From Minisyncoccia bacterium (GTDB lineage: Bacteria > Patescibacteriota > Minisyncoccia > Phycocordibacterales > Phycocordibacteraceae), in assembly GCA_038228545.1 (NCBI GenBank), contig JBBRPE010000002.1, positions 22,426 to 86,425 of the forward strand: a stretch of 64,000 nt of DNA. The letters are read 5' to 3'. The position numbers and the translations under genes are program-made. Below are positions 10,168 to 64,000 of this stretch, piece by piece (position 1 is the first letter of the stretch; the number at the start of each line of letters is the position of its first letter). The notes under the pieces were generated by a model. That model ran no database searches. It was not told where the DNA came from and saw only the letters and a program-made list of their open reading frames with translations.

Positions 10168-10178
10168 GTGATGCGTGT

Positions 10179-13997: not shown

Positions 13998-14001
13998 GTC
14001 T

Positions 14002-14748
14002 CTAGGAAGTAACTGCTTTTACTATTCCTCCGAATGAGAGTGCATCCGTACTAGCTCGTCCAATGAGAAAACCGTCTATGCCGGTTGCACCAGCAAGTAC
14101 ACGTGCATTACCGGGCTCTACTGAACCTCCGTAGAGAATGCGGATTTTTTCCGCTCCCGTGCCGGGCAAATACTCACCGAGAATCTTTCGTATATAAAGC
14201 ACCATTTCTTGTAAATCTTCTGGTGTAATGGCCTCCGCAGCTGACTTTCCAATCGCCCAAATTGGCTCATAGGCAATAACTAGCCGCATGCGTTCTTTCT
14301 GAGACAGTGGTTCCAGAACCGTTGCAAGTTCCGCACGTAATTCATTCAAATAGTGCGCTTCTGCATCGCGCTCGCGCTCACCGATACACACGATAGGCGT
14401 AAGTCCGTGCGCAAGCGCACGCTTCACCTTTTCGAGCACCATCATGTTCGTCTCGCCCACTGCACGTCGTTCGGAGTGGCCGATAATCGTGTACTGGACT
14501 CCCATACCAGCTATGGTTGCTGCGGTGACTTCTCCCGTAGCTGCTCCGCCCAGAGAAGCTGAGACATCCTGCGCAGCAAATTCAACACTTGAACGGTTAC
14601 CGCCAGCAAGAAAGCCAAGATGTGGCGAGGAAGGAGCGAGCACGATGTCGTGATGGCCTGCCGCAGAAAGACGCTTTCCAACGGCATAGAGACGTTTTGC
14701 TTTTTCGAGTGTTTCTACGTAGGCTTTCCAGTTTCCGACGATAAGCAT
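14002..14748 (-). CDS. tpiA: triosephosphate isomerase
   Basis: GNWKAY..., IAYEPIWAIG, GGSV motifs. Confidence 0.9.
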   Translation of the reverse strand: MLIVGNWKAYVETLEKAKRLYAVGKRLSAAGHHDIVLAPSSPHLGFLAGGNRSSVEFAAQDVSASLGGAATGEVTAATIAGMGVQYTIIGHSERRAVGETNMMVLEKVKRALAHGLTPIVCIGERERDAEAHYLNELRAELATVLEPLSQKERMRLVIAYEPIWAIGKSAAEAITPEDLQEMVLYIRKILGEYLPGTGAEKIRILYGGSVEPGNARVLAGATGIDGFLIGRASTDALSFGGIVKAVTS

Positions 14749-19866: not shown

Positions 19867-19870
19867 AGTG

Positions 19871-50274: not shown

Positions 50275-51045
50275 ATGCGCGCAAAACAATCACTCGGGCA
50301 GAACTTCCTTATGCACCAGGCGACCGCTGACCGCATTGCGGACGCCGCTGGGCTTACCGAGAAGTCGGTTGTTCTCGAGATAGGCCCGGGAACCGGCATG
50401 CTTACGCGTTCTCTTCTGGAGCGAGCAAGGAAGGTATACGCCGTGGAAACGGACAGCGAACTTCTTCCACAGCTCGAGGAAACATTTACAGTCGAAATAA
50501 CTGCAGGAAAACTCCGTCTCGCGAATGGAGATATACGCACCTACGACCTGTCTAGAATGCCAAAGGGCTACACGGTAGTGGCCAATATTCCGTATTACAT
50601 AACGGGAGAAATCATACGAACCGTGCTTTCGGCAAAGAATAAGCCGTCATCGGTGACGTTTTTAGTGCAAAAAGAGGTCGCAACGCGCATAGTGCGGAGT
50701 CCAAAAGAAAGCCTTTTGTCGCTCTCGGTGAAGATTTATGGCACCCCGAGCTACAAATTTACCGTTCCGAAAGGGGCTTTTCGCCCCGCACCGAAAGTAG
50801 ATTCGGCAGTTCTTCATATTGCGGCCATCGCCGCTCCATTCAAGACACCCAAGCAGGAGCAACGTTTTTTTCAAGTACTACATGCTGGTTTCGCCCATAA
50901 AAGAAAACGATTAGCTAAAAACTTGGAAGATATCGCACAGACTGGGGCAATTACACAGGCATTTGGCGAGCTTGGGCTTGATACGAATGCGCGAGCAGAA
51001 GACGTTTCGCTGCCTGACTGGAAAAAACTTTCAATAACACTTTGA
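50275..51045 (+). CDS. rsmA: 16S rRNA (adenine1518/1519-N6)-dimethyltransferase
   Basis: SLGQNFL, EIGPGTG, NIPY motifs. Confidence 0.9.
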   Translation: MRAKQSLGQNFLMHQATADRIADAAGLTEKSVVLEIGPGTGMLTRSLLERARKVYAVETDSELLPQLEETFTVEITAGKLRLANGDIRTYDLSRMPKGYTVVANIPYYITGEIIRTVLSAKNKPSSVTFLVQKEVATRIVRSPKESLLSLSVKIYGTPSYKFTVPKGAFRPAPKVDSAVLHIAAIAAPFKTPKQEQRFFQVLHAGFAHKRKRLAKNLEDIAQTGAITQAFGELGLDTNARAEDVSLPDWKKLSITL

Positions 51046-51133
51046 CGACGCTTCGGAGTCATACACAATGCACACGTAAGCGTGTGTTTTTCCTATGAAA
51101 TAAAGCCTGCGTGCTACTATTTCAGTACGTACC

Positions 51134-52138
51134 GTGACTTATTCTACCCGCACCACTTTAATAGCTATCGCATCTTTTGCAGCGCTCTTTTTTATTGTCG
51201 TGGCCGTCCTTATTTCAGGACCTCTTCCATTTCATCTGAACGCAGCGAACGCAGAATCCACGCACGAGTTGCTTGTTTCGTATGCGGCCAAAGATTCCGA
51301 CAGTGATGGACTTCCGGATTGGGAAGAGGCACTCTATGGCACTGATCCAAACAATCCTCATTCGGTGAATGCAGACGTAACGGACGGACAGGCAGTTGCT
51401 CAGGGTCTCGTGAAGCCTAAATTCTCAACAGCAACGACAACCCCGGTCGACGCAAGTTCAATTCCTGGTGCGGCAGTTGGACCCCAGACGGTGACCGACC
51501 AATTCGCACGGACACTTTTCTCCGATTATCTTTCGAGTCACGGAAGTACTCAACCAACGCCTGAGGAAATTGCGACCTTCGTAGAAAGAAAGCTCTCTAC
51601 GCTCAAGGCGGACCAGCAGGTTGCTACCGCATTTAATGTGGGTCAGGTGCGTGTAGCCGGGACTGGCAGCGATGCTCTGCTTGCATACGCAGCAAGTGTT
51701 GAGCAGCTCTACCTTCGCTACCAAACAAACGACACCGAAAACGAGATAGAGTACCTATCTGACGCATCAACGAAGAGCGACCCGAAAGCACTCGTACGAA
51801 TTGCAGTAATAGGGAAGGCTTACACATCAATCGGGCAGGGACTTATGAAGCTTTCGGTTCCAAAGGAACTGGCGACGGCGCATCTTCAGCTTGCAAATTC
51901 CATGGTTCGTTTGGGAGGACTGATTACCGACATGTCGTATCTTGATGCAGATCCATTCCGTGCAGTGCTCGCGTTCCAGCAATACCAGGATGCGAGCACT
52001 GCCATGTATCAGGCGTTGAGTTATTTGAACAACAGCTACAGCGCGGAAGGTGTCACGATTAATCAGAACGTCCCCGGCTCGCGTTTCTACGCGACGATGG
52101 TTCTTGGAAGCAGTGTGGTCGCGAAACCGCAACAATAA
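51134..52138 (+). CDS. membrane-anchored secreted hypothetical protein (first gene of T4SS-like cluster)
   Basis: N-terminal TM, no known motif. Confidence 0.45.
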   Translation: MTYSTRTTLIAIASFAALFFIVVAVLISGPLPFHLNAANAESTHELLVSYAAKDSDSDGLPDWEEALYGTDPNNPHSVNADVTDGQAVAQGLVKPKFSTATTTPVDASSIPGAAVGPQTVTDQFARTLFSDYLSSHGSTQPTPEEIATFVERKLSTLKADQQVATAFNVGQVRVAGTGSDALLAYAASVEQLYLRYQTNDTENEIEYLSDASTKSDPKALVRIAVIGKAYTSIGQGLMKLSVPKELATAHLQLANSMVRLGGLITDMSYLDADPFRAVLAFQQYQDASTAMYQALSYLNNSYSAEGVTINQNVPGSRFYATMVLGSSVVAKPQQ

Positions 52139-52142
52139 TTCT

Positions 52143-53648
52143 ATGAAACGAACCCTATCGGAATTCACAGTTTCTCTTGCACGAGTGGTTGCTGTTGCGC
52201 TCACAGTTGTACTCTTTCTTCTTCCTGCTGCTCCACTAGCTCGTGCGGCAGACTGGAACAGTCCACTTCAGGTTAGTGCGGCTGGGCACTCTTCCGTTGC
52301 CAACGGTCTTACTTCGATAACACAAATAAAGGTCTTTTCGAATCCAATTTTCTATCACATAGCGCAGGCTGCCATACAATCGATGGTTCGTAGCACGGTC
52401 ACCTGGATTAATAGTGGATTCCAAGGTTCTCCTGCCTACGCAACCGATTTAAAAGCAACGCTCCAAGATGCAGCTGATCAAGAAGCAGAACGATACCTCA
52501 CTACACTCCTTGATAGTTCGGCTATTAATTCTCCGTTCCGAGATCCGGTCGCACGGGAGGTGCTTGCGGCTTACTACGTAGCAACGAGTCGTGATGGGTT
52601 CACCATTCAAAATCCATATACGCTCAACCAGGTGAGTCCGAATGATGCAGCTTTTCAACGAGGAGATTTTTCGCAAGGAGGTTTTCCTGCATGGCTTTCC
52701 GAAACAATAAACCCATCGAATAATTGGTTCGGTGCTGAGCAACTTCAGAAGGCGGCCCTCGATAGTCGTATCGGCCAAACGGTAGGGCAAATAAATTCAG
52801 AGCTTGCGCAAGGAAATGGATTCTTTTCGTATCGTAAGTGCGATAAACAGGTCACTACTCTAGAAGGGAGCGGCACCACTGTACAGACCATTAATGGTGC
52901 GCAGGTCGACCTCACTCCACGCCAGACCTGTCTTAACAGTCGCATAGAGACGCCGGGTTCGGTCATAGCAAACTCTCTTAATAAGTCCCTGGGGCTCGGT
53001 GCCGACTCGCTTGTGCAGGCAAAAGAATTTGATGAAATAGTAAACGCCCTGATGGGACAGCTTCTGCAAAACGTTATCGGATCAAATGGTCTAGGAGGTG
53101 TATCGCGTAGCTCCACAGCAACCGCTGGACGAGCATACTTCGACCAAACGACGACTTCTTCGTCAGCAACAACATCTGCCTCAGTTTCCCTCGTTACGTC
53201 ATTCCTCCAAGTAGTTTCTACACAGTCTACCCAGCTCCAAACCTATCTAACAAGCTGGCAGACTATAAACTCTGCTGCACAAGCTGCAAAGACAGCGCTC
53301 CAGCAAAGTACCTGCCTCCCGAACGCAAGCGCACTCATTACTACGCAGGTAGACCCGGTCATCATTCAAGCGTCGACGGTGAGCGGCTCGATTCCTCCGC
53401 TCCTAGCACAGCTCGATACAATTAATACCAACGCACTTGATGCTTCAACCCAAACAAGCACCGAGCGGTCAACAACACTCAGTACAGCTTCTACTGACTA
53501 CCAGACTGTGACGTCCTCGACTAATTTCCCGTCAGCAAGCGATTTCACCTTTGCAGCACAGCAGTCCCAAGACTCAGGAACTACGTCTCCACCTTCACTA
53601 CTTACGCAAATGAATCAACTTACCGCTCAAGCAAGGTGCGGACAATAG
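52143..53648 (+). CDS. secreted Ser/Thr/Gln-rich hypothetical protein
   Basis: Signal/TM VVAVALTVVLFLLPAAPLARA; start set to MKRTL after upstream stop. Confidence 0.45.
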   Translation: MKRTLSEFTVSLARVVAVALTVVLFLLPAAPLARAADWNSPLQVSAAGHSSVANGLTSITQIKVFSNPIFYHIAQAAIQSMVRSTVTWINSGFQGSPAYATDLKATLQDAADQEAERYLTTLLDSSAINSPFRDPVAREVLAAYYVATSRDGFTIQNPYTLNQVSPNDAAFQRGDFSQGGFPAWLSETINPSNNWFGAEQLQKAALDSRIGQTVGQINSELAQGNGFFSYRKCDKQVTTLEGSGTTVQTINGAQVDLTPRQTCLNSRIETPGSVIANSLNKSLGLGADSLVQAKEFDEIVNALMGQLLQNVIGSNGLGGVSRSSTATAGRAYFDQTTTSSSATTSASVSLVTSFLQVVSTQSTQLQTYLTSWQTINSAAQAAKTALQQSTCLPNASALITTQVDPVIIQASTVSGSIPPLLAQLDTINTNALDASTQTSTERSTTLSTASTDYQTVTSSTNFPSASDFTFAAQQSQDSGTTSPPSLLTQMNQLTAQARCGQ

Positions 53649-56329
53649 ACTCTATGGTGTACGTTCCACAAAAGGGGGAGCTCGTGTGCAGGAGCTGGAA
53701 GTTGTTTTTTGGTGCTGTTTTCACACTTTTTCTCCTATCAATCGCTCCATCTCTCGTTCATGCAAGTACTGCGTATGATACGGCTCACCAAGCTTCGATT
53801 GCGGCGGCGGCGGCGGCTACTGCAGCAGACACAAAATTTAATAACGATGGTCTGCTTACGAGTGCAGCGACCACAGATCAGGACGCGGTAAGTGCATCGC
53901 GTGCCCAAGCGCAATACGCTGCCGCTCTCTCGAGAGAGGCAAGCGCTGCTGCAGCTGATGCTCAAGCTGCTAACGGTACGCCCGCAGCAACTACGGCATA
54001 CAACAATGCAAACGCAGCAACACAAGCCATCTCGCCGATTGTCAATACAGTTAACGGATATCTTACTGGTAATAAACTTGTCGGTTCTCCAGCTCAAGTT
54101 GCACCTATTGCCGCAAGCATCCAGGCAGATAAGGCAAGCATACAGTCGTCCTTGGCAAGCGCAAACACTTATTTAGCTTCTGCTGCAACCTCAGCAAACA
54201 ACAGCGCTGCTGCAGCTACCGCGACAGCAACAGCAGCTTCTGCAACAACTGCTGCAACACAGACAAACACCGCTGCGGCACAGACCGCTGCAAATCCGGA
54301 GCCTAATGCGTGTAATATCGGCATTCTTGGGGGAGGGAACTTATGGGCTTGTATTCAGGGCGTAATATACGGCTTTATAAAGCTCATTGCGCTCTTTTTC
54401 CTCTCGCTCTCAACCTTCTTTCTTGGTATTGTCGGTCTCCTGTTCAATTGGACTATTTATATCACCGTCTTCCAGTTCGGAAATTTAATAGGTAACAACC
54501 CAGGCATGCTTGCTGCATGGGGTGTGCTCCGGGATGTTGGAAATATTCTACTTCTGTTTGGATTCATATTCATGGGGGTTAGTACCATTTTGAACTTACC
54601 GGGGAGCGAGTTCACTGCTCGTCGAGCATTGCCAACTCTCATAATTTTCGCGATTTTAATGAATTTCAGTCTGTTTGCGGCTGAGGTAATTATCGACACA
54701 AGTAATGCTCTTGGTAGTACGTTTTACCGACAGGCAGGTACCGGCCTCTGTACAAGTGATGCGGTTACTGACCTACTACGTTGTGCGACAGAATACGGTG
54801 TTGCGGGAGCAGTTATGCAGCTAAGTGGTATCACGTCTATTTTTAGTTTTGATGGAGGCGCCCACTTCTTGGCCGCAAACGACATGGGCTATGCGATAGC
54901 ACTCATTGGTCTTACTATATTCGCGTTTACTCTTGCCTTTGTCCTTCTTGCTGCAGTATTTATGCTGGCAACACGAGCGGTCACACTCGCTTTCCTTATG
55001 GCGGTTTCACCAATAGGCTTCGCTGGCATGGCAGTGCCATTCCTACATAAGTTTGCGAAGATGTGGTGGGAACAACTTTTAAAACAAGCATTCTTTGCCC
55101 CAATTTACTTACTTTTAGTTCTGGTGAGTGTGAAGTTTATGGATGGCGTACGTACAGCACTCGGTGATAGTAACCAGACCCTTTTAGCAGCCTTTAGTGG
55201 TGGTGGTGTCTCAAACTTAAGTATGGTGGTTTTATTTGTTCTGTTGGTTGGTTTCCTACTTGCGGCGACGCAATCTGCAAAAGATATGAGTGCCATAGGC
55301 TCAAGTACGGCAACTAAGTTTGCGGGTGCGGCCACGTTCGGGACGATTGGATTTGTTTCTAGGCGTACGGTGGGCGCAGCAGCAAGTCATGCTTCTCGTG
55401 CAATACGCAGTTCACCAATCGGTACGACCGAGTTTGGTCGCTCGCTTGCAGGTGTTGCCGATAAGGGAGCACGGGCAAGCTTCGACTTTCGTACTACAGC
55501 AGGCGGCAAGGCACTTGCAGGTCGCACTGGCGACCTTGGTAAGCCAAGTAAGGCCGCTTCGCATGGTATGCACGGTATAGAAGAGAAGGCTGAGAAGGAG
55601 CGTGTTGACTATGCTAAGAGTCTTAAAGATGTAAAAGCCAAGAAGGACGGCGAACGCACGGAATCGGACCAGGAATTTGATACCCGTCGCCAAAAGGAGG
55701 CAGAGAACAGCGAGAAAACAATTGAGGAGGCAACTGCAGCGTCTGAGCTCGTCGATAAGGCTACTGAGGGCCTAAACACAGCAAAAGATGAGCTCAACGG
55801 CACCGAGGAACGTGTCGCCGTGCTTCGTGCTCAGGCTGCAGATAAGCCTGGGGACGCGAGTATCCAGCGCCAGCTTTTGGAGGAAGAACGCATACTTAAG
55901 TCACGGGAGGCACTTGCCGGAAATGCCGAGCTGAAACATAAGGAGGCTCTTGAGAAGCTTACCGCAGCTGAGAAAGCTAGGGCAGAAGCAGAGAAAGTTA
56001 AAACCGAAGGAGCGGAAAAGAAAGTGCTTACCTTTAAAAAGGGAGATGTTTTAGATTCTAAGAAGCAACGACAAGAAAAATACGGACATAACCTTGAGCG
56101 TGAGACGTTCCTGAATGCTCCAATAATTAAAAACTTTACGGCGACAGGTATAGCAAACGCAGACGCCGCGCACCATATAATTCACAACGCTGGTAGGACT
56201 AAACTGGAAGAATCGTTGGATAACCTTAAAAAATCAGTTGAGGAAGGGACTGAAAAGGTCACTGAGGAGGTGCATGCGAACGATCAGAAGCCTGCTGGAA
56301 ATAAAGCTCCTGCAGATGCACATCATTAA
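53636..56329 (+). CDS. VirB6/TrbL-like polytopic membrane protein with Ala-rich N-terminal ectodomain and charged coiled-coil C-terminal domain
   Basis: >=8 TM helices in central region, T4SS gene context (PrgI, VirB4, VirB2-like). Confidence 0.5.
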   Translation: MRTIDSMVYVPQKGELVCRSWKLFFGAVFTLFLLSIAPSLVHASTAYDTAHQASIAAAAAATAADTKFNNDGLLTSAATTDQDAVSASRAQAQYAAALSREASAAAADAQAANGTPAATTAYNNANAATQAISPIVNTVNGYLTGNKLVGSPAQVAPIAASIQADKASIQSSLASANTYLASAATSANNSAAAATATATAASATTAATQTNTAAAQTAANPEPNACNIGILGGGNLWACIQGVIYGFIKLIALFFLSLSTFFLGIVGLLFNWTIYITVFQFGNLIGNNPGMLAAWGVLRDVGNILLLFGFIFMGVSTILNLPGSEFTARRALPTLIIFAILMNFSLFAAEVIIDTSNALGSTFYRQAGTGLCTSDAVTDLLRCATEYGVAGAVMQLSGITSIFSFDGGAHFLAANDMGYAIALIGLTIFAFTLAFVLLAAVFMLATRAVTLAFLMAVSPIGFAGMAVPFLHKFAKMWWEQLLKQAFFAPIYLLLVLVSVKFMDGVRTALGDSNQTLLAAFSGGGVSNLSMVVLFVLLVGFLLAATQSAKDMSAIGSSTATKFAGAATFGTIGFVSRRTVGAAASHASRAIRSSPIGTTEFGRSLAGVADKGARASFDFRTTAGGKALAGRTGDLGKPSKAASHGMHGIEEKAEKERVDYAKSLKDVKAKKDGERTESDQEFDTRRQKEAENSEKTIEEATAASELVDKATEGLNTAKDELNGTEERVAVLRAQAADKPGDASIQRQLLEEERILKSREALAGNAELKHKEALEKLTAAEKARAEAEKVKTEGAEKKVLTFKKGDVLDSKKQRQEKYGHNLERETFLNAPIIKNFTATGIANADAAHHIIHNAGRTKLEESLDNLKKSVEEGTEKVTEEVHANDQKPAGNKAPADAHH

Positions 56330-56334
56330 CGTCT

Positions 56335-57159
56335 ATGGACCCTCGAACACTACCTTCGGACGACCAGCAACTTGAGAACGCAATGGCGTATCTGCTCAAC
56401 ACGCTACCAAAACCCTTACAAGATTTTCTTTTGAGTGATGAGCGTAATCAGATTGCTCTCTCGCTCTCTCAAAAATATGGTCTGCATGTCGACCAGGCAG
56501 GGGAGTTTGAGCGTGGTTTCCTCTATCTACTTATGGGTTCCATCACCCCGGGAGAATTCGCCAGCATGCTTGAGACCGCCGGCATTTCTAAAGAGAGCAC
56601 TATGGGGCTTATGGCAGACGTAAATGAGCAAGTCTTTAAGCGCTTGCGTGATGCTGAAAAATTACAGCAACATTCTGCTGTATCGGCACCTGACATACAA
56701 CGATCTAACGCAGTCGATGCTATCCTTGCCGCTCCGGCACCGATTGCACCTCCCGCTCCAGTACCACTTATTCCTGCCGCTGAGCTGGTCACTCCTCAGC
56801 CCGCTACCACAGCTCCTCTGTATGCTACTCCGACAGTGCCTCAGCGGGTAACGCTCCCGACACCAACACCAGTTTATACTCCTCAAGCAGCGACGGTTCC
56901 TGCCTACAGCGAACATTCTTCTATGCGTACCATGGCAACCGATATGCAGGCTGTGAAAGAAAACCGTCCAGCGATGCCTGTCTTCGAGCAGGTCGCAGTT
57001 ACTCAGGTTGCGAGCACGACTGTTACTACAGCACCGATACCCGTCGCACAGCCAGTGATGGAAACATCAGGAAAGACCGCTCCTGCTCCTGTAAATCTTC
57101 CTGGTGCTCCGATGATTAAGCAGTACGGTGTTGACCCATACCGAGAAGCTATCCAATAG
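56335..57159 (+). CDS. hypothetical Pro/Ala-rich protein in T4SS-like cluster
   Basis: ORF only. Confidence 0.4.
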   Translation: MDPRTLPSDDQQLENAMAYLLNTLPKPLQDFLLSDERNQIALSLSQKYGLHVDQAGEFERGFLYLLMGSITPGEFASMLETAGISKESTMGLMADVNEQVFKRLRDAEKLQQHSAVSAPDIQRSNAVDAILAAPAPIAPPAPVPLIPAAELVTPQPATTAPLYATPTVPQRVTLPTPTPVYTPQAATVPAYSEHSSMRTMATDMQAVKENRPAMPVFEQVAVTQVASTTVTTAPIPVAQPVMETSGKTAPAPVNLPGAPMIKQYGVDPYREAIQ

Positions 57160-57191
57160 AAACTCGATGTCAGTCGGTTATACTGATAGCA

Positions 57192-57605
57192 ATGGAGTAT
57201 CAGGTACCGCAGTTCATCGAGGTTGAAGACAAGATATTCGGCCCCTTCACACTCAAGCAATTTATATATATTGCGGGTGGTGTTGGAGTATCCGTTGCTA
57301 TCTTTCTGTACACCCCTCTTTTCATTGCCGTCCTTCTCATTATCCCGATTGCAGCTCTTACTGCGGCGCTGGCGTTTTACAAAATAAACAACAAGACTTT
57401 TATCGAAGTACTTGAAGCGGGATTCAATTACTACACGAAAGGGAGACTCTACCTTTGGCACAAAGATACGTCTGAGCGCTCGCAAACACCCGCCGCTCCG
57501 GCTCCTATAGTAGTGACACGCCAGAAACTCGGCCTTACGCAGGGAAAGTTGCAGGAGCTCGCATGGTCGCTCGATATCAAGGACCAGAACCAGCCTCCCG
57601 TATAA
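57192..57605 (+). CDS. PrgI-family (VirB3-like) small membrane protein
   Basis: YQVPQFIEVEDKIFGPFTLKQFIYIAGGVGVSVAIFLYTPLF matches PrgI/VirB3-like N-terminus + 2 TM. Confidence 0.65.
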   Translation: MEYQVPQFIEVEDKIFGPFTLKQFIYIAGGVGVSVAIFLYTPLFIAVLLIIPIAALTAALAFYKINNKTFIEVLEAGFNYYTKGRLYLWHKDTSERSQTPAAPAPIVVTRQKLGLTQGKLQELAWSLDIKDQNQPPV

Positions 57606-57608
57606 CGT

Positions 57609-58262
57609 ATGGCACTACCACAAGCAACTCAGGATTTTGTACCAGTTCGGGAAGTGCGCAATGGCGTCATTATTCTTAAGGACGATGGCTACCGCGCTGT
57701 AATGATGTGTTCATCACTCAATTTCTCTTTGAAATCAGAAGACGAACAGGCGGCAATCGTCGGAGGCTTCCAGTCTTTCCTTAATACGCTCGATTTTTCG
57801 GTGGAGATAGTGGTGCATTCCCGAAAAATGGACATCCGTCCGTATCTAACTCTTTTGGAGCAGCGCATCGATTTACAGCAGAGTGAGCTCATGCGTATTC
57901 AGTTACGAGAGTATATCCAATTCGTTCGGGGGTTTATGGATTCTGCCGAGATAATGACAAAACTTTTCTATGTCGTTGTTCCGTACACACCAGCAATAGC
58001 ATTACAACTTTCCAAGGCACTTCCTTTTACAGGGAAGAAACACCCTGAGGCCAAGGGTGGTATCGTCGACAACTTCGAGGAGGACCGTATACAACTTGAG
58101 CAACGTATGTCACTTGTTGCGGCGGGACTTCAGTCAGCCGGTATACGCGCAGTCCCACTGACAACTGAAGAAACTATCGAACTGCTGTACCGCTCCTTTA
58201 ATATTGGCCAGATTGAAAGCCCTATCCATCTTGATGGTGGCGCACCTTCCGCGCGTACATAA
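57609..58262 (+). CDS. VirB4/TraC N-terminal-domain-like protein (standalone)
   Basis: Resembles N-terminal region of following VirB4-like ATPase; sits between PrgI-like and VirB4 genes. Confidence 0.4.
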   Translation: MALPQATQDFVPVREVRNGVIILKDDGYRAVMMCSSLNFSLKSEDEQAAIVGGFQSFLNTLDFSVEIVVHSRKMDIRPYLTLLEQRIDLQQSELMRIQLREYIQFVRGFMDSAEIMTKLFYVVVPYTPAIALQLSKALPFTGKKHPEAKGGIVDNFEEDRIQLEQRMSLVAAGLQSAGIRAVPLTTEETIELLYRSFNIGQIESPIHLDGGAPSART

Positions 58263-58265
58263 CAT

Positions 58266-60089
58266 ATGGCACTACTCGACTTCCTCGGACGAAATAGAAA
58301 AGAGACAGTGGCAATGACTCCTGTGTTGCCAAAAGATATATATGCGCAAGGGGCGCTCCAGCTTACAGATGCGATTGCCCCGGCCGCACTTAAGGTAAGT
58401 GCAAAGGAAATTGAGCTTGGAGAGAAATTTTCTCGCTCGTTCTACACTATTTCTTACCCGCGTTTCCTTACGGACGGTTGGTTCATACAGGTAATTAACC
58501 TCGCGCGTCAGCTTGATATCGCCATATTCATACATCCAGTTGAGACCGGCCTAGCGCTTCGGAACTTCCAGAAAAAAGTCGCAGAGGTGCAAAGTCAGAT
58601 TTCCGACCGTGAACAGAAAGGTCTCGTCCGTGACCCACTTCTCGATACTGCCTACCAAGACCTTGAAACACTTCGCGACCGGTTGCAACAGGCGGAAGAA
58701 AAACTCTTTGATGTCGGACTGTATCTCACACTCTATGGAGACACCAAGGAGGAGCTCGACAAGATAGAAGGAGAGGTACGCGGTCTTCTTGACGCGAAAC
58801 TTGTCTATACAAAGCCTGCACTCTTCCAGCAAGAACAGGGATTCCGCTCTACACTTCCGCTTGCACTCGATGAACTCCAAGTCAATTCCAAACTGAATTC
58901 CTCGCCCCTCTCTTCCATATTCCCATTCGTTTCGTTCGACCTCACAAGCGACCACGGCATTCTTTATGGCATCAACCGCCACAACGCTTCTCTCATCCTC
59001 TTTGACCGTTTCTCGCTTGAGAACTACAACTCGGTTGTGTTTGCGAAGTCGGGCTCCGGTAAGTCATACGCTGTGAAGCTCGAAATCTTGCGTTCGCTTA
59101 TGTTCGACACTGATGTCATTGTTATCGACCCTGAGCAGGAATATGAGTACTTGGCGAACGCTACAGGCGGACGTACTTTTAATATTTCGCTTTCGAGTGA
59201 GCACCATATCAATCCGTTTGATTTACCGCCAGTGAAGGAAGACGAGGAGCCGGGTGATATTCTTCGCTCGAACATCATTAACCTGGTTGGTCTTTTCCGT
59301 ATTATGCTCGGTGGTCTATCCCCGGAAGAGGACGCTATTATCGATCGCGCAATTACGGAAACCTACGCCCTTAAGGACATTACGGGCGATAACGATTTCA
59401 CGGGTGTTGAGCCACCCCTGCTTTCTGATTTTGAGAACGTTCTTTCTGGCATGGAAGGAAGTGAGTCACTTCTCCAGCGACTTTCGAAGTACACACATGG
59501 CACCTGGGCGGGATTCATAAATCGTCCGACTAATATCGACATCAAGAAACAGTTTATTGTCTTCTCGGTCCGTGACATGGAAGATGAACTCAAGCCGGTC
59601 GCCATGTACATCATTACGCATTTTATTTGGAATGCGGTACGTCATGAGCTTAAAAAACGCCTTCTGGTAATCGATGAAGCGTGGTGGATGATGAAGTCGG
59701 AAGATACTGCATCGTTCCTCTTCTCGCTTGCAAAACGCGGACGTAAATACTTCCTTGGCCTTGCGACTATTACTCAGGACGTCGAAGACTTCTTGAAGAG
59801 TCCGTATGGCCGTCCTATTCTTACCAACTCTTCGATTCAGCTTCTCCTCAAGCAATCGCCGACAACGATTGACGTGCTCAAGGAGACCTTCAATCTCACG
59901 GAACAGGAGAAATACTTACTTCTTGAATCAGGGGTGGGGGAGGGACTTTTCTTTGCTGGTCTTAAGCATGTGGCGATTAAAATCGTCTCTTCGTATACGG
60001 AGGACCAAATCATCACGTCTGACCCGTCTCAGTTGCTTTCCATAAAGCAGGAGAAAGACCGTCTCGACAGCCAAGCTGCGGGCGCCTAA
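58266..60089 (+). CDS. VirB4/TrbE/PrgJ-like type IV secretion ATPase
   Basis: Walker A AKSGSGKSY, Walker B LLVIDEAWWM, CagE/TrbE/VirB domain order. Confidence 0.8.
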   Translation: MALLDFLGRNRKETVAMTPVLPKDIYAQGALQLTDAIAPAALKVSAKEIELGEKFSRSFYTISYPRFLTDGWFIQVINLARQLDIAIFIHPVETGLALRNFQKKVAEVQSQISDREQKGLVRDPLLDTAYQDLETLRDRLQQAEEKLFDVGLYLTLYGDTKEELDKIEGEVRGLLDAKLVYTKPALFQQEQGFRSTLPLALDELQVNSKLNSSPLSSIFPFVSFDLTSDHGILYGINRHNASLILFDRFSLENYNSVVFAKSGSGKSYAVKLEILRSLMFDTDVIVIDPEQEYEYLANATGGRTFNISLSSEHHINPFDLPPVKEDEEPGDILRSNIINLVGLFRIMLGGLSPEEDAIIDRAITETYALKDITGDNDFTGVEPPLLSDFENVLSGMEGSESLLQRLSKYTHGTWAGFINRPTNIDIKKQFIVFSVRDMEDELKPVAMYIITHFIWNAVRHELKKRLLVIDEAWWMMKSEDTASFLFSLAKRGRKYFLGLATITQDVEDFLKSPYGRPILTNSSIQLLLKQSPTTIDVLKETFNLTEQEKYLLLESGVGEGLFFAGLKHVAIKIVSSYTEDQIITSDPSQLLSIKQEKDRLDSQAAGA

Positions 60090-60092
60090 CCT

Positions 60093-61199
60093 ATGGCAGA
60101 ACCAGCCCGCCGGCCGGATGGGGAAGAGGGACAGGAGCGGAAACCGCTTAATCTTCGACAGAAGGTGAGTGATGGAGCCGATCTCATTCCTTTCGTAGGA
60201 GGAGTAAAGATGATGGGCGAGTCAGTCGCCGGCAAGGATGTGGCTGGGCGAACTCTTTCTGGAAGAGAGCGTGTGGCACACGGTGCCATGGGGGCGGGTA
60301 GTCTTGCACTCGATTTTACTGGTGTAGGGGAGGTGGAGAAAGCAGGCCTCGCGGCCGAGAAGGCGGCGATTGGCTTTACTGAGAAAGAAGGGGCGGAATC
60401 ACTCGGTAAGGATACTGTCCGTCCTCAGGAGGAAAGTGCTCAACGTCATTTTGTTGAACGAGGAGCATCCGACGCACGTAAGAATATTGAAGTACTACGA
60501 CGTCAACGCGATCGTGTGCCGGGAGAAGGGCAGAGGCGTCGTGAAGTACCAGGCCAGGAGCAACTGCGACCAGGCGATCCTGACGACGAAAAGACGCAAA
60601 AGAAACAGCGTGCTCGAACAAAGGCCAAGGAGGAGCGTGGTCAACGTAGACGAGGAGTCCGTTCGACGAACGATATCCTTGCAAACAAGGGAGATTTGAA
60701 TGATGCCCAGGCAATCGGTATGGTGCGTCAGGCAATACGCTCGACGTTTGAGAATATTGAAACGAGCTTCAGTAAAGCCGGCGAGCACTTTGATACCGAG
60801 GATGTAGAGAAAATAGTGAACGATACGCCACCTCCACCATCATTCCCGTATTTCATGGTAGTGATTGCACTTATTAAGGATTTGATTGACATCCCGGGAG
60901 ACCTTCTTGTTGTTGGTGTTATTTTAACGACTATTTTGGCCATTGTAGCCGATCTTATTATTTTTATGTGGTCGTGGCATAAAATGGGTGGGTGGTGGTG
61001 GAAGAAAATGATTTTCACCTGGTTTTGGAAACGTTTTATATTTGAAGTTATTATTGAAATCATTCCCTTTGCTCAGATTATCCCCGCAACCACAATCCTG
61101 GTACTCATGACCCATTACCGCGAAACAAAAATAGTAAAACTTCTTAACGGAGCTCTGGAAGAGATACACGAGGCAGGAATTCTCAAATATATTACGTAA
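60093..61199 (+). CDS. hypothetical protein, charged disordered N-terminus + C-terminal Trp-rich TM region
   Basis: ORF in T4SS-like cluster. Confidence 0.4.
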   Translation: MAEPARRPDGEEGQERKPLNLRQKVSDGADLIPFVGGVKMMGESVAGKDVAGRTLSGRERVAHGAMGAGSLALDFTGVGEVEKAGLAAEKAAIGFTEKEGAESLGKDTVRPQEESAQRHFVERGASDARKNIEVLRRQRDRVPGEGQRRREVPGQEQLRPGDPDDEKTQKKQRARTKAKEERGQRRRGVRSTNDILANKGDLNDAQAIGMVRQAIRSTFENIETSFSKAGEHFDTEDVEKIVNDTPPPPSFPYFMVVIALIKDLIDIPGDLLVVGVILTTILAIVADLIIFMWSWHKMGGWWWKKMIFTWFWKRFIFEVIIEIIPFAQIIPATTILVLMTHYRETKIVKLLNGALEEIHEAGILKYIT

Positions 61200-61253
61200 T
61201 TTTGTGCCCAGGTATGATGGTTTTGGTAGGTAGGGTGGCGGTATACTACTCAT

Positions 61254-62240
61254 ATGCGAATCTACGGCAAGATGTTCGTGCCGCTCCTTGTGGCTTCTTT
61301 ATTTTTTGTGACATATCCAGCACATGCGCAATTTGATACGGGTCAATCGCTCTCAATTATCGTGTCTCCGCAGAACCCTCGTCCATACGACACAGTGACT
61401 ATCACTCCTGACAGTAACGCTATTGATCTCATTGCGAGTCTGGTGACTGTAAGTGTTAACGGAAAGGTAGTCGAAACAGGTACAGGAGCTCAGAGCATTC
61501 CGGTAACTATTGGAGGACCGGGAGAGACAACTAAAATAAGTGTAACTGCTAAAATAGGGGGTGCCAGCTATACCAGTACTGTTTTGCTTAAGCCGGCAGA
61601 TGTTTCACTTGTGATCGAGCCAGTCTCGATCACCCACCCGTTTTATTTGGGTGGGGGACTCGTCGCACCGTCCGGACGTGTCCGCATTATAGCTCTACCA
61701 GATTTGCGTACGACACCAAATGTACGATTGAATCCGTCCACTCTTATCTACACATGGAAGCTGGGCGATCAGATACTCAAAGGAGATTCCGGAATCGGAC
61801 GTTCAATGCTTGTGGCGACAGCGCCTGTGCGATACCGTGACGCACAAGTTTCTGTGACGGTTACCAATTCGGATTCTACGCTTGTAGCCCAGAGTGCCAC
61901 TACCATTTCACCCGTTGACCCTGTTTCTCGGGTTTACCATAATGACGCACTCATGGGTCCAGATTTTGACCATGCACTTTCAGCTTTTATTATGACGACC
62001 CAAGAAGAGGCGTTCCGGGTCGTTCCGTATTATTTCGCAACCCTGCCGTCGCTCTCGTGGGCAGTAAACGGACAATCAGCAAGTAATGATGCCGATGTAA
62101 CGGTGCGAACTACCGGGTCAGGGAAGGGGACTGCGACCCTTTCGCTCACTGCTATCGACAGTGCGACTCGACAGAGTTCATCTGCAAGCCTGCCGATAAC
62201 ATTCGGGGCACGAAAGTCGGTTAATATATTTGGATTCTAG
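61254..62240 (+). CDS. secreted beta-rich hypothetical protein (signal peptide MRIYGKMFVPLLVASLFFVTYPAHA)
   Basis: Signal peptide + Thr/Ser/Val-rich. Confidence 0.45.
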   Translation: MRIYGKMFVPLLVASLFFVTYPAHAQFDTGQSLSIIVSPQNPRPYDTVTITPDSNAIDLIASLVTVSVNGKVVETGTGAQSIPVTIGGPGETTKISVTAKIGGASYTSTVLLKPADVSLVIEPVSITHPFYLGGGLVAPSGRVRIIALPDLRTTPNVRLNPSTLIYTWKLGDQILKGDSGIGRSMLVATAPVRYRDAQVSVTVTNSDSTLVAQSATTISPVDPVSRVYHNDALMGPDFDHALSAFIMTTQEEAFRVVPYYFATLPSLSWAVNGQSASNDADVTVRTTGSGKGTATLSLTAIDSATRQSSSASLPITFGARKSVNIFGF

Positions 62241-63201
62241 TATGCGTACGACTCACTATCTCCTACTCGGTGCGCTCCTGATTCTTCCTGTTGCTGCAGC
62301 GGCACAAGGAAGTGATACAACGGCCTTCGTTCCGCTTTTACCTCAACTTCCAGGGATTTCAACACTTGAGACGAGTACCACACTCGCACCATTTCTAAGT
62401 CAGATATATAAAATATGTATCGGTGCGGCGGCGGTACTAGCAGTGCTCCAACTCATGCGTGCTGGTGTTATGTATATGGGAGGTGACAGTATCACAGAAA
62501 AGAAGGAGGCTCGCGAACTTATAACTCTTTCGATAGTTGGCCTTATTCTTGTGCTCTCACCGGTAATTGTGTTCAGTATCATCAATCCAAAGATTTTGAA
62601 TCTTGATATTAATGCAGCATCGCTCAAGACGGAGATTCAGAATATACAAGCTATTCCAGGACAAACAACCGCTGCTGATGGAAGTGTGTCCCGCTCTGTG
62701 TCTGCTGGGCCGTCAAGTACCTGTACGCAAGCAACTTGTAGTGCAGTAAACGGAGAGTATAGCGAGGCAGTGTGCTATAACGCGTCTTCCGGAAGTGTTA
62801 CTGCATTTAACTCAAAATTTTGTTCGGCAGGTTATAGCCGTGCAAGTAGTTGTAGTGTTGCTGCGTCAGGCTGCACCCCTGCAACCCAACGGGTAAGTGG
62901 CCCCACAAGTAGTGCAACAGCATGTCCCATATACACAGCAGGACAAACAATTAGCGGGAACTGTGTGGATTCATGTAATGCCCAGCCGGGTTTCCAAGCT
63001 CAGATAAGACCAGCGCGTGGACAAGTTTGTAATCTGAAACCTGTGGCTACAACACCTGCAGCGGCCCCAACGGGACCAGCGAGGTATCCTCGTAATGCAA
63101 CTACTAACGTAGCTAATCCATACGACTTAGATCAGTGCCAACTTCAAGGATGTACACTGAACCGGTCTGGTAGGGGTGCTTCATGTACCTGTCCCACATA
63201 G
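62230..63201 (+). CDS. VirB2/TrbC-like T4SS pilin with long Cys-rich C-terminal extension
   Basis: Signal peptide, two hydrophobic segments ICIGAAAVLAVLQL / LITLSIVGLILVLSPVIVF typical of VirB2 pilins; 17 Cys in C-terminal 150 aa. Confidence 0.5.
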   Translation: MDSSMRTTHYLLLGALLILPVAAAAQGSDTTAFVPLLPQLPGISTLETSTTLAPFLSQIYKICIGAAAVLAVLQLMRAGVMYMGGDSITEKKEARELITLSIVGLILVLSPVIVFSIINPKILNLDINAASLKTEIQNIQAIPGQTTAADGSVSRSVSAGPSSTCTQATCSAVNGEYSEAVCYNASSGSVTAFNSKFCSAGYSRASSCSVAASGCTPATQRVSGPTSSATACPIYTAGQTISGNCVDSCNAQPGFQAQIRPARGQVCNLKPVATTPAAAPTGPARYPRNATTNVANPYDLDQCQLQGCTLNRSGRGASCTCPT

Positions 63202-63204
63202 CAT

Positions 63205-64000
63205 ATGCGACGTACCCTTCTGATTACCGCGGCAGTCGTTCTCCTCATCGCACTAGGTGTTGGAGTGTATTTTGTTTTCTTTACCAAGAAAGGAGGGCTT
63301 ACGGTGGGGCAGGGGACAAGCTTCCCGAGTTCAGACACAAATGGTGCAAATAGTGCGGTGGTGAGTGCCTCAACTCAAGAGCTTGGTGTACCGCTTGCAA
63401 ACGCCGGGACGGATATCGCACCAGGCTTGGTACGTATAACCAACACACCAGTTTCACTTGGAAGTGTCGCTACGTATGTTCCTGGACAAGTAGCGGGTAC
63501 AAGCACAGCCACGAGCGCCCCACTTACGTCCTACCAGCCGGATGTACGCGTCGAATATATTGAACGTGAAAGTGGAAACATATATGACTATCAGGCACAC
63601 GCACGCACCCTTACCAGGCTTTCAAACAAGACTCTCCCGGGTGTCGAAGAGGCCACTTGGCTACCGGATGGCTCGCTTGCATATGCGCGTTTCCTCGACA
63701 AAGGAAGCGGGAGCGAGCATATAGGGACCTATGCACTTCCTGCGACAGGCACTGGCGGATACTTTCTCGAGCCGGGCCTCGCCCAGGTAATCGCGCGTGG
63801 CACCAGCACGCTCGTAACGTTACTTTCCACTACAGACGGTTCTTCAGCGACCATATCAACTCCTTCAGGAGCGGGTGTTCGGACCCTCTTCACAACCGCA
63901 TTATCTGCCATTCGTGTCGCTTTTTCAGGAAATAATTATGTCGTAACGACAAAAGGCTCAGCCACGAGTGATGGATATGCTTTTCTTGTTGACGCGAAGA
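63205..64000 (+). CDS. partial CDS (3' end beyond window): N-terminally membrane-anchored secreted protein
   Basis: Own translation, ATG at 63205 (MRRTLLITAAVVLLIALGVGVYFVFF...), open to window end; absent from ORF track presumably because no stop. Confidence 0.45.
   Translation, partial: MRRTLLITAAVVLLIALGVGVYFVFFTKKGGLTVGQGTSFPSSDTNGANSAVVSASTQELGVPLANAGTDIAPGLVRITNTPVSLGSVATYVPGQVAGTSTATSAPLTSYQPDVRVEYIERESGNIYDYQAHARTLTRLSNKTLPGVEEATWLPDGSLAYARFLDKGSGSEHIGTYALPATGTGGYFLEPGLAQVIARGTSTLVTLLSTTDGSSATISTPSGAGVRTLFTTALSAIRVAFSGNNYVVTTKGSATSDGYAFLVDAK

What the first reader, a model, noticed from the sequence alone, without database searches (positions are those of the whole stretch)
51134..64000. 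Gram-positive-type T4SS-like cluster (PrgI/VirB3, split VirB4, VirB6-like, Cys-rich VirB2-like pilin) with no relaxase or coupling protein in view
The cluster spans 13 kb on the plus strand.
- Recognisable parts: a PrgI-like VirB3 homologue; a standalone VirB4-N-like ORF directly upstream of a full VirB4/TrbE ATPase; a VirB6/TrbL-like polytopic protein with Ala-rich ectodomain and coiled-coil tail; a VirB2/TrbC-like pilin with an unusual 150-aa Cys-rich C-terminal extension; and several secreted Thr/Ser-rich proteins.
- No VirD4 coupling ATPase, relaxase, or VirB1/VirB11 is present within the window.
- In small-genome epibiotic lineages such systems have been suggested to act in host interaction or DNA uptake rather than conjugation.
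- The Cys-rich pilin extension and the duplicated VirB4 N-domain stand out as atypical.
Basis: partly seen in the sequence, partly recalled or inferred. Interest (0 to 1): 0.55.

Follow-up and report, generated by a model that had tools for sequence, protein, structure and literature searches.

The report
Patescibacterial chromosomal type IV secretion cluster

Summary
Positions 51134-64000 hold eleven co-directional, tightly packed genes (gaps of 54 nt or less); the last is cut by the window end.

Support for the T4SS parts:
- VirB4: above NCBIfam's curated cut-off.
- PrgI/VirB3: above Pfam's cut-off.
- A TrsD-like protein: it is the missing N-terminus of VirB4, so the gene is split, not duplicated.
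- An extended VirB6: 25 of 56 family members hit Pfam TrbL, and the model's top seven PDB matches are all TrwI/VirB6.
- A VirB2-like pilin: 84 of 93 family members hit T4SS_pilin.

No relaxase or coupling protein was found among the 20 largest other ORFs of the window. In 80 related Paceibacteria species the same cluster lies between rsmA and yidC-rnpA-dnaA. VirB4 is better conserved than DnaA there. This makes it a vertically inherited core system, not a mobile element.

All of this matches the Patescibacteria T4SS described by Wang et al. 2023 and Quinonero-Coronel et al. 2025, whose function is still unknown.

I found no report of these details:
- The pilin's hypervariable, disulfide-type Cys-rich ectodomain is shared by the whole family.
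- A PT-TG pre-toxin module is fused to a cluster membrane protein.
- One cluster protein ends in a conserved DPYRE motif.

Verdict: already known, moderate-to-low interest.

The parts
51070..51087 (+). Terminator-like hairpin plus T-run just after rsmA (stop at 51045). It overlaps a promoter-like site at 51042-51069. Probable upstream boundary of the cluster's transcription unit.
   Evidence: Consensus scan only. The rsmA-A gap is 88 nt, against 54 nt or less inside the cluster.
51134..52138 (+). A: N-terminally anchored surface protein with a conserved TSP3-type Ca-binding motif (DxDxDGLxDW..GTDP).
   Evidence: PF18884 TSP3_bac, 24.7 bits against a cut-off of 25. The motif is kept in the 36-sequence family consensus. 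Found at this position in 35 related loci.
52143..53648 (+). B: secreted protein with a conserved N-domain and a variable Ser/Thr-rich C-terminus. Adhesin-like.
   Evidence: Signal/anchor at residues 5-36; 24% Ser+Thr. 4 of 36 family members carry F5/8 type C domains and 2 carry Ig-like surface domains. No hit to a solved structure.
53636..56329 (+). C: extended VirB6/TrbL-like polytopic membrane protein. It has an Ala-rich ectodomain (about residues 45-225), a helical membrane core (about 230-690) and a charged coiled-coil-like tail.
   Evidence: 25 of 56 family members hit PF04610 TrbL, best E 1e-7. AF2 model of residues 225-700: pLDDT 87, pTM 0.79. The top 7 Foldseek PDB hits are all R388 TrwI/VirB6 (8rt9_F: prob 1.00, E 9e-3, TMt 0.51). 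The window protein itself has no Pfam hit.
56335..57159 (+). D: soluble protein with an N-terminal helical domain, a Pro-rich linker and a nearly invariant C-terminal DPYRE motif. Function unknown.
   Evidence: No hydrophobic segment. D267-P-Y-R-E271 is conserved in at least 90% of 41 homologues. No Pfam family.
57192..57605 (+). E: PrgI-family VirB3 homologue with two transmembrane helices.
   Evidence: PF12666 PrgI, E 1.1e-11, 45.5 bits against a cut-off of 27. Present in 77 of 81 loci directly upstream of F-G.
57609..58262 (+). F: TrsD-like protein, i.e. the detached N-terminal domain of VirB4.
   Evidence: NCBIfam matches: Mbov_0397 VirB4 positions 103-232 (E 1e-7); CD1110 VirB4 positions 2-75 (E 6e-5); TrsD/TraD (E 0.004). 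The L001 homologue carries PF26593 TraC-like. No similarity to G. Found in 80 of 81 loci.
58266..60089 (+). G: VirB4 ATPase that lacks its extreme N-terminal domain.
   Evidence: NCBIfam CD1110 family, 373 bits against a cut-off of 325, profile positions 183-733. PF19044, E 6e-25. All 8000 scored candidates reached E<=1e-5, and the 120 best listed are 85-100% identical; those that carry a source name are almost all Paceibacteria/Parcubacteria MAGs.
60093..61199 (+). H: membrane protein. Its C-terminal transmembrane core is the conserved component at this position. This genome adds an N-terminal PT-TG pre-toxin module (residues 26-86, nt 60168-60350) and a charged linker.
   Evidence: PF14449 PT-TG, 24.3 bits against a cut-off of 23.5. 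The TM core aligns with the family at the same position in 44 loci. More than 200 representative relatives of the core exist; the module is shared at 50-56% identity with other proteins.
61254..62240 (+). I: secreted beta-rich protein, probably built of Ig-like domains. Conserved core component of unknown role.
   Evidence: Found in 79 of 81 loci. Weak BiPBP_C (12 of 41) and Cadherin-like (7 of 41) hits. Phage Hoc, E 0.007.
62242..63201 (+). J: VirB2/TrbC-like pilin (signal peptide plus helical hairpin at residues 48-114) carrying a 197-aa hypervariable Cys-rich ectodomain with 14 Cys.
63205..64000 (+). K (cut by the window end, about 265 of about 410 aa): N-terminally anchored beta-rich protein, possibly a TolB-like propeller. 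Last gene of the cluster.
   Evidence: 67% identical to the K protein of L002. The family is present in 67 loci at this position. Weak TolB match, E 0.038. A K homologue also lies beside a T4SS pilin in another class.

Best explanation
The region is the chromosomal type IV secretion system of a Paceibacteria (Parcubacteria, phylum Patescibacteria/CPR) genome. It is the MPF-FATA-derived 'Patescibacteria-clade' T4SS.

Shown:
- Eleven co-directional genes encode VirB4, its detached TrsD-like N-domain, PrgI/VirB3, an extended VirB6 and one VirB2-like pilin. They also encode six lineage-specific envelope or accessory proteins (A, B, D, H, I, K).
- The cluster sits between housekeeping genes. In relatives it lies directly beside yidC-rnpA-dnaA.
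- It has no relaxase or coupling protein nearby.
- It is vertically inherited and under strong purifying selection.

Inferred mechanism:
- VirB4 (F plus G) is docked to the membrane by PrgI and VirB6. It extracts the pilin from the membrane and polymerises it into a surface filament or conduit.
- This is the coupling-protein-independent 'default pilus-generating mode' of T4SSs.
- The pilin's disulfide-bonded, hypervariable ectodomain and the secreted proteins A, B, I and K form the host-contact surface.
- The machine serves the obligate epibiotic lifestyle (attachment to, and exchange of macromolecules with, a host cell) rather than conjugation.

My confidence is about 0.95 for the identity and non-conjugative nature, about 0.55 for pilus or conduit assembly, and undecided for the direction and nature of the cargo.
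For: Component identities:
- Direct hits.
- VirB6: family level, model, PDB matches.

Split rather than duplicated VirB4.

Chromosomal, syntenic and origin-proximal:
- L001 gene calls run UvrD-RsmA-[12 genes]-YidC-RnpA-DnaA-DnaN.
- The same order holds in 80 species-level loci.

Conservation:
- Against L001: VirB4 87%, UvrD 71%.
- Medians over the loci: VirB4 76%, DnaA 55%, UvrD 52%, DnaN 40%.

No T4CP or relaxase:
- None among the 20 largest other window ORFs.
- None in the +/-10 kb of L001.

Literature:
- The Patescibacteria VirB4 clade, with TrsD, PrgI, VirB6 and VirB2 nearby, no relaxase, and close to dnaA/ksgA/rnpA (PMC12102498).
- The T4SS and its pilins are essential for epibiotic growth of a Saccharibacterium (PMC10633639; PMC12857230).
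- VirD4 is needed only for substrate transfer, not for pilus assembly (PMC13463995).
- Tubular structures that may be T4SS pili were seen in a cultured Microgenomatia parasite (bioRxiv 10.64898/2026.06.21.733656).

Pilin ectodomain:
- All 120 homologues have at least 4 Cys, and counts are even in 98%.
- In another class, a DsbA gene sits beside a Cys-rich pilin.
Against: - No experiment exists for any Paceibacteria T4SS, and no pilus has been shown to consist of this protein.
- A 200-aa ectodomain on every subunit may be sterically incompatible with a VirB2-type helical filament. J could instead be a membrane-anchored stalk or adhesin.
- The window's own pilin and VirB6 fall below the Pfam cut-offs.
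- The structural matches are weak in E-value or not discriminating.
- No VirB8-, VirB1- or VirB11-like part was recognised.
- A coupling protein may be encoded elsewhere in the genome. Most Patescibacteria have one far from virB4, and only 64 kb was available.
- The dnaA side of the cluster is inferred from relatives because the window ends inside gene K.
Confidence: 0.85

Rival explanations
1. Nucleic-acid import machine. The cluster would work like H. pylori ComB or the archaeal Ced/Ted systems: a coupling-protein-less VirB4 apparatus with a conjugation-type pilus that takes up DNA or RNA from the host or the environment to feed a cell that cannot make nucleotides. This overlaps with the best explanation (same pilus, defined cargo direction).
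For: - Composition resembles ComB/Ced: VirB4, VirB3, VirB6 and a pilin, without T4CP or relaxase.
- VirB4 has a weak CedB match, E 1.6e-9, restricted to the P-loop region.
- In about 20 of 80 related loci, RecJ-RNaseH-ComEC lies directly upstream of PrgI-TrsD-VirB4.
- In another class, RadA, RecG and ComF lie in the T4SS neighbourhood (also noted in PMC12102498).
- Import has been proposed in the literature (PMC11665869; bioRxiv 2026).
Against: - In this window ComEC and RecJ are 45 kb away on the other strand. The adjacency elsewhere is explained by one inversion.
- In S. epibionticum, deletion of comEC abolishes competence but not viability, while the T4SS is essential.
- No DNA- or RNA-binding component was recognised in the cluster.
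Confidence: 0.25
2. Effector or toxin export into the host cell. The T4SS would deliver proteins (for example polymorphic-toxin-like proteins bearing the PT-TG module) into or onto the host to subvert or lyse it.
For: - A PT-TG pre-toxin module is fused to cluster membrane protein H.
- The same module recurs at the same position in L055.
- It also occurs in a protein encoded next to a T4SS pilin/K/DsbA/VirB4 neighbourhood in another class.
- It occurs in 700-980-aa proteins with unrelated C-termini.
- Export has been speculated for Saccharibacteria.
Against: - No coupling protein is present to recruit cytoplasmic substrates.
- Only 1 of 45 position-H proteins carries PT-TG by Pfam.
- One PT-TG protein examined is not near any T4SS gene.
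Confidence: 0.12
3. A conjugative element, or its decaying remnant (ICE or integrated plasmid), whose relaxase and coupling protein lie outside the window.
For: - VirB4 belongs to a family named after a conjugative transposon (CD1110/CTn2).
- Most Patescibacteria encode a VirD4 homologue somewhere in the genome.
- A tyrosine recombinase lies at 39142-40059.
Against: - The same location between rsmA and yidC-rnpA-dnaA is seen in dozens of species.
- VirB4 is more conserved than DnaA.
- GC content is the same as the flanks.
- All ORFs are intact with tight spacing.
- Relaxases were found in only 103 of 3035 Patescibacteria genomes and are rarely near virB4.
- The recombinase is 12 kb away and is XerC/D-like.
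Confidence: 0.03

Closest known systems
Patescibacteria-clade T4SS (Quinonero-Coronel et al. 2025, PMC12102498; S. epibionticum SEML1_0006-0019, Wang et al. 2023, PMC10633639)
   Same: - Shared parts: VirB4 with an adjacent TrsD-like gene, PrgI/VirB3, VirB6 and a VirB2-like pilin.
- No relaxase and no nearby T4CP.
- Chromosomal position close to dnaA, dnaN, rnpA and ksgA.
- Near-universal in the phylum.
   Different: - The Saccharimonadia and Microgenomatia loci carry arrays of 2-11 small divergent pilins. This Paceibacteria arrangement has one pilin with a long Cys-rich ectodomain (two copies in a few loci).
- Accessory genes A, B, D, H, I and K are not named in those papers.
- No peptidase or lysozyme gene lies inside the cluster.
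MPF-FATA conjugative T4SSs of monoderms (pGO1/pSK41 Trs, pCF10 Prg, CTn2 CD1110)
   Same: - VirB4 scores above the CD1110 family cut-off.
- PrgI-type VirB3.
- A separate TrsD-like N-domain protein, as in pGO1.
- No outer-membrane core parts.
   Different: - No relaxase, VirD4/TcpA coupling protein, VirB1-type hydrolase or PrgB-type adhesin.
- It has a VirB2-like pilin, which Gram-positive systems lack.
- It is fixed in the chromosome rather than mobile.
ComB (Helicobacter pylori) and Ced/Ted (Crenarchaeota) DNA-import systems
   Same: VirB4-family ATPase plus a VirB2-type pilin, without a coupling protein or relaxase. Chromosomal. Not used for conjugative export.
   Different: - No sequence-level membership: the CedB match is limited to the P-loop (37 bits against a cut-off of 700).
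- No VirB7-10 parts as in ComB.
- Import has not been shown for any patescibacterial T4SS.
VirB2/TraA/TrbC conjugative pilins (F, T and pKM101 pili)
   Same: Signal peptide, two hydrophobic helices joined by a short basic loop (GGDSxTEKK), and a position inside a T4SS cluster.
   Different: The mature protein is about 300 aa instead of about 70. It carries a 73-337-aa disulfide-type, hypervariable C-terminal ectodomain. In another class this extension can even carry an M23 peptidase.
PT-TG pre-toxin domain of polymorphic toxin systems (Pfam PF14449)
   Same: Residues 26-86 of H match the Pfam model above its cut-off. The module also occurs in long proteins with varied C-termini.
   Different: Here it sits at the N-terminus of a T4SS-cluster membrane protein with no recognisable toxin domain. 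No T7SS/LXG context is present.

Membership tests
Patescibacteria-clade T4SS | VirB4 of the MPF-FATA-related patescibacterial clade | tested here: met
   CD1110-family VirB4, 373 bits against a cut-off of 325. The closest 120 homologues are 85-100% identical; those with a source name are almost all Paceibacteria/Parcubacteria MAGs. No formal phylogeny was run.
Patescibacteria-clade T4SS | TrsD-like (VirB4 N-terminal-like) gene next to virB4 | tested here: met
   F lies 3 nt upstream of G. It matches VirB4 N-terminal profile positions and TrsD/TraD (E 0.004). The L001 homologue carries PF26593 TraC-like.
Patescibacteria-clade T4SS | VirB3/PrgI, VirB6 and VirB2-like pilin near virB4 | tested here: met
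   PrgI is above the Pfam cut-off. VirB6: 25 of 56 family members hit TrbL, and the top PDB matches are TrwI. Pilin: 84 of 93 family members hit T4SS_pilin. The window copies of VirB6 and VirB2 are themselves below cut-off.
Patescibacteria-clade T4SS | No relaxase and no coupling protein in the virB4 neighbourhood | tested here: met
   None among the cluster ORFs or the 20 largest other window ORFs. None in the +/-10 kb of L001. The rest of the genome was not available.
Patescibacteria-clade T4SS | Chromosomal location near dnaA/dnaN/rnpA/ksgA (Paceibacteria) | tested here: met
   rsmA (ksgA) lies directly upstream in the window. yidC, rnpA, dnaA and dnaN lie downstream in 34-66 of 81 related loci. 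This is inferred for this genome because the window ends in gene K.
Conjugative element (ICE/plasmid, MPF-FATA) | Relaxase plus type IV coupling protein plus mobility (variable presence, integration borders) | tested here: not met
   No such genes found. The position is fixed and syntenic across 80 species. GC content equals the flanks.
VirB2/TrbC pilin family (PF04956 / PF18895) | Score above the Pfam gathering cut-off | tested here: not met
   17.8 bits against 26.6 (PF18895) and 15.8 against 27.9 (PF04956) for the window protein. At E<=0.01, 84 and 70 of 93 family members match, so homology is supported at family level.
VirB2/TrbC pilin family (PF04956 / PF18895) | Signal peptide plus two hydrophobic helices with a short charged loop; polymerises into a pilus | tested here: inconclusive
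VirB6/TrbL family | Polytopic helical membrane core homologous to TrbL/VirB6 | tested here: met
   Seven hydrophobic segments. TrbL hits in 25 of 56 relatives. The top seven PDB matches are TrwI/VirB6, prob up to 1.00, but E is only 9e-3 to 0.27.
ComB / Ced DNA-import systems | Sequence membership of the ATPase and pilin; demonstrated DNA uptake | tested here: not met
   CedB 37 bits against a cut-off of 700; CedD 15.8 against 600. Function cannot be tested with these tools.
Polymorphic toxin (PT-TG-bearing) | PT-TG module followed by a C-terminal toxin domain and an adjacent immunity gene | tested here: inconclusive
   The PT-TG module is met (24.3 bits against 23.5). The C-terminus is instead the conserved T4SS membrane core. 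No toxin or immunity gene was recognised.

The most novel reading that the evidence does not exclude
The single VirB2-like protein of Paceibacteria would be a modular 'display pilin'. A conserved hairpin polymerises into a VirB4-driven, coupling-protein-independent tube. Its hypervariable disulfide-rich head decides host specificity and breaches the host envelope; in other lineages the head can even be an M23 peptidase. The tube would then serve as the long-sought conduit through which these auxotrophic cells take up host nucleic acids or cytoplasm. PT-TG-module proteins would be accessory or cargo factors of this machine.
Probability: 0.15. Interest if true: 0.8.

Novelty: already known. Interest (0 to 1): 0.27.

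Why it matters
The patescibacterial T4SS is the first T4SS shown to be essential for its bearer's growth, and its function is an open question for a phylum that may hold a quarter of bacterial diversity.

This locus adds no new kind of system. It does give a clean Paceibacteria example and a few testable leads:
- the family-wide Cys-rich variable pilin ectodomain;
- conserved unknown partners (I, K, the H membrane core, the DPYRE protein);
- a recurrent PT-TG module;
- the observation that the cluster splits into two modules (A-D and E-K) by an inversion.

Tried and rejected
- Exact look-ups of the window's pilin (TTG start) and VirB4 found no contig. The ATG-start pilin gave only a 2-kb contig. 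The true downstream flank therefore could not be read and was inferred from relatives.
- Single-sequence PDB searches for C, J and F gave nothing.
- The afdb50 library was unavailable.
- 'Duplicated VirB4 N-domain' was rejected: F and G cover consecutive profile segments and share no similarity.
- ICE or plasmid origin was rejected.
- Pfam and PDB profile searches of families D, I, K and B gave no significant assignment. Weak hints only: TolB E 0.038, Hoc E 0.007, and discoidin domains in 4 of 36 B homologues.
- D and E clustered together in my single-linkage clustering, but they share no direct similarity. The link is an artefact of fused or over-extended ORFs.
- A DnaA-box search near dnaA in L001 found no cluster, so oriC was not located.
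- No DsbA homologue was detected in the window.
- A strict PT-TG-to-T4SS linkage was not upheld: one PT-TG protein is elsewhere in its genome.

Full report
**What is in the sequence**

Positions 51134-64000 carry eleven ORFs on the + strand. I label them A to K.

| Gene | Coordinates | Length |
|---|---|---|
| A | 51134-52138 | 334 aa |
| B | 52143-53648 | 501 aa |
| C | 53636-56329 | 897 aa |
| D | 56335-57159 | 274 aa |
| E | 57192-57605 | 137 aa |
| F | 57609-58262 | 217 aa |
| G | 58266-60089 | 607 aa |
| H | 60093-61199 | 368 aa |
| I | 61254-62240 | 328 aa |
| J | 62242-63201 | 319 aa |
| K | 63205 to window end | cut at about 265 of about 410 aa |

Gaps inside the cluster run from -13 to 54 nt. 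The gap to the upstream rsmA gene is 88 nt and holds a terminator-like hairpin. GC content (0.48-0.51) does not differ from the rest of the window. The cluster continues about 450 bp beyond the window.

**Component identities**

- **E** is a PrgI-family VirB3 (PF12666, 45.5 bits, cut-off 27).
- **G** is a VirB4. NCBIfam 'VirB4-like conjugal transfer ATPase, CD1110 family' gives 373 bits against a curated cut-off of 325. Walker A and B motifs are intact.
- **G and F together make one VirB4.** G aligns only to profile positions 183-733 of that 752-position model. F aligns to positions 2-75 of the same model, to positions 103-232 of the Mbov_0397 VirB4 model, and weakly to TrsD/TraD. F and G share no similarity with each other. 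VirB4 is therefore split, with F as its detached N-terminal domain. It is not duplicated, and G is not a full-length VirB4.
- **C** has no Pfam hit itself. 25 of 56 homologues hit TrbL/VirB6 (best E 1e-7). An AlphaFold2 model of its membrane core (residues 225-700; pLDDT 87, pTM 0.79) has R388 TrwI/VirB6 chains as its seven best PDB matches (8rt9_F: prob 1.00, E 9e-3, TMt 0.51). With its Ala-rich ectodomain and charged tail, it fits the 'extended VirB6' type described in PMC12857230.
- **J** scores below cut-off on T4SS_pilin and TrbC. 84 and 70 of 93 homologues match these families. It has the expected layout: a signal peptide, then two helices joined by an invariant GGDS-TEKK loop.

**Context and inheritance**

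- The VirB4 search scored 8000 candidates, all with E<=1e-5. The 120 best listed are 85-100% identical, and those that carry a source name are almost all Paceibacteria/Parcubacteria MAGs.
- In a related genome (L001, VirB4 87% identical) the called genes run UvrD-RsmA-[twelve genes including PrgI, TraC-like and VirB4]-YidC(-)-RnpA(-)-DnaA-DnaN, with no relaxase or coupling protein.
- A scan of species-representative genomes returned 80 further loci. The order A-B-C-D-E-F-G-H-I-J-K followed by yidC, rnpA, dnaA and dnaN recurs throughout.
- VirB4 is the best-conserved gene of the neighbourhood. Median identity is 76%, against 55% for DnaA, 52% for UvrD and 40% for DnaN. Against L001 it is 87%, versus 71% for UvrD.
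- Elsewhere the window holds ordinary chromosomal genes: ComEC, RecJ, PGK, PilB/PilC, NusA, RNase Y, ComM, CCA-adding enzyme, XerC/D-like recombinase and LysM-M23 peptidase. None of the 20 largest other ORFs is a VirD4 or a relaxase.

**What is already known**

Quinonero-Coronel et al. 2025 (PMC12102498) surveyed 3035 Patescibacteria genomes and reported:
- a monophyletic VirB4 clade nested in MPF-FATA;
- TrsD as the most abundant associated component;
- PrgI/VirB3, VirB6 and VirB2-like pilins near virB4;
- relaxases in only 103 genomes;
- coupling proteins rarely nearby;
- in Paceibacteria, proximity to dnaA, dnaN, rnpA and ksgA.

Wang et al. 2023 (PMC10633639) showed that the T4SS and its pilins are essential for epibiotic growth of a Saccharibacterium. 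Reviews call the function 'completely unknown' and speculate on effector delivery or nucleotide/DNA uptake. A 2026 preprint reports tubular structures that may be T4SS pili in a cultured Microgenomatia parasite that acquires host RNA. The window's cluster is a typical member of this described system.

**Likely mechanism**

The gene content and conservation are shown. The rest is inferred.

T4SS pilus assembly needs VirB4, VirB3, VirB6 and the pilin, but not VirD4. VirD4 is required only for substrate transfer, and its absence leaves the machine in a pilus-generating mode (PMC13463995).

I therefore think the cluster most likely builds a surface filament or conduit from J. It would be energised by F+G, anchored by E and C, and surrounded by envelope proteins:
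- A has a conserved TSP3 Ca-binding motif.
- B has a variable C-terminus, with discoidin or Ig domains in some species.
- I has weak Ig-like hits.
- K has a weak TolB-like hint.

The filament or conduit would serve host contact. Whether it imports host nucleic acids, exports proteins or only adheres cannot be decided from sequence.

**The pilin extension**

- All 120 homologues examined have at least 4 Cys after the hairpin (median 10). The count is even in 98%. Extension length runs from 72 to 338 aa.
- The hairpin region averages 67% pairwise identity against 21% for the extension.
- The Cys-rich extension is thus a family trait, consistent with an extracellular, disulfide-bonded, fast-evolving head. 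It is not an oddity of this genome.
- I found no mention of it in the papers read.
- In a locus from another class (L083), a T4SS_pilin carries a Cys-rich extension with an M23 peptidase domain. It lies next to a DsbA gene, a K homologue and a PT-TG protein, within 10 kb of virB4.
- The AF2 model of J is only moderately confident (pLDDT 67.6), and its small beta domains have no informative PDB match.

**Other things found**

- **H:** it shares a transmembrane core with the proteins at the same position in 44 other loci, and with more than 200 representative proteins. Only the window copy and a close homologue (P0362) add an N-terminal PT-TG pre-toxin module.
- **The PT-TG module elsewhere:** it recurs at the same position in L055. 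It occurs twice in the L083 protein. It also occurs in 280-980-aa proteins, at least one of which is not near T4SS genes.
- **D:** it ends in a nearly invariant DPYRE motif.
- **Alternative arrangement:** about 20 related loci have TIM-PGK-RecJ-RNaseH-ComEC-x-M50 directly upstream of PrgI. The same genes lie at 7765-14748 on the - strand of this window. This implies a roughly 50-kb inversion with a breakpoint between D and E, and therefore two separable modules, A-D and E-K.

**Verdict**

It is wrong about the 'duplicated' VirB4 N-domain and about the claimed atypicality. The system is already described, and this is one more example of it. Interest is limited to the small, unreported details above and to the still-open question of what the patescibacterial T4SS does.

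Noticed in passing
window 60168-60350 (H residues 26-86); L055:11906-12760; L083:10001-12139; L084:8001-8852: A PT-TG pre-toxin module (PF14449) is fused to the cluster's membrane protein H. The same module, at 50-56% identity, occurs in three other settings: at the same position after virB4 in L055; twice in a 712-aa protein next to a K homologue, DsbA, a T4SS pilin and VirB4 in another class (L083); and in proteins not near any T4SS gene (L084).
   Followed up: partly
window 57133-57147 (D residues 267-271): The soluble cluster protein D ends in a nearly invariant 'DPYRE(P)' motif across 41 Paceibacteria homologues. The preceding Pro-rich linker is hypervariable. No Pfam family matches. It may be a docking peptide.
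   Followed up: partly
L083:13469-15252: In another Patescibacteria class, a T4SS_pilin-type protein carries a Cys-rich C-terminal extension with a Peptidase_M23 domain and sits directly after a DsbA gene. This suggests that pilin extensions are modular, disulfide-bonded functional heads.
   Followed up: partly
window 7765-14748 (- strand) versus L028:227-9354 and about 20 other loci: In about 20 related genomes, TIM-PGK-RecJ-RNaseH-ComEC-x-M50 lies immediately upstream of PrgI-TrsD-VirB4, and genes A-D are absent from that flank. In this window the same block is 45 kb away and inverted. This implies a roughly 50-kb inversion with a breakpoint between D and E, splitting the cluster into modules A-D and E-K.
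   Followed up: partly
window 58266-60089 and loci L001-L081: VirB4 is more conserved across the 81 loci than the adjacent housekeeping genes. Median identity is 76% for VirB4, 55% for DnaA, 52% for UvrD, 49% for RsmA and 40% for DnaN.
   Followed up: yes
window 8668-12363, 18649-21661, 43879-45444: A separate competence and type IV pilus gene set lies in the same window: ComEC, RecJ, PilC (T2SSF), PilB (T2SSE) and ComM.
   Followed up: no
window 47018-48109 (- strand): A LysM plus Peptidase_M23 gene lies 3 kb upstream of the cluster, beyond uvrD. It could be the cell-wall hydrolase (VirB1 analogue) that the cluster lacks. Linkage could not be assessed because the fetched flanks end there.
   Followed up: partly
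window 51134-64000 relative to dnaA (from L001-L081): The whole cluster is transcribed towards yidC-rnpA|dnaA. It would be head-on to replication if oriC lies beside dnaA. No DnaA-box cluster (E. coli consensus) was found in L001, so oriC is not located.
   Followed up: partly
window 1777-3501 (2001-4000): A local GC peak (0.60 against about 0.50 elsewhere) coincides with an SPFH/flotillin-like gene and a long antisense ORF.
   Followed up: no
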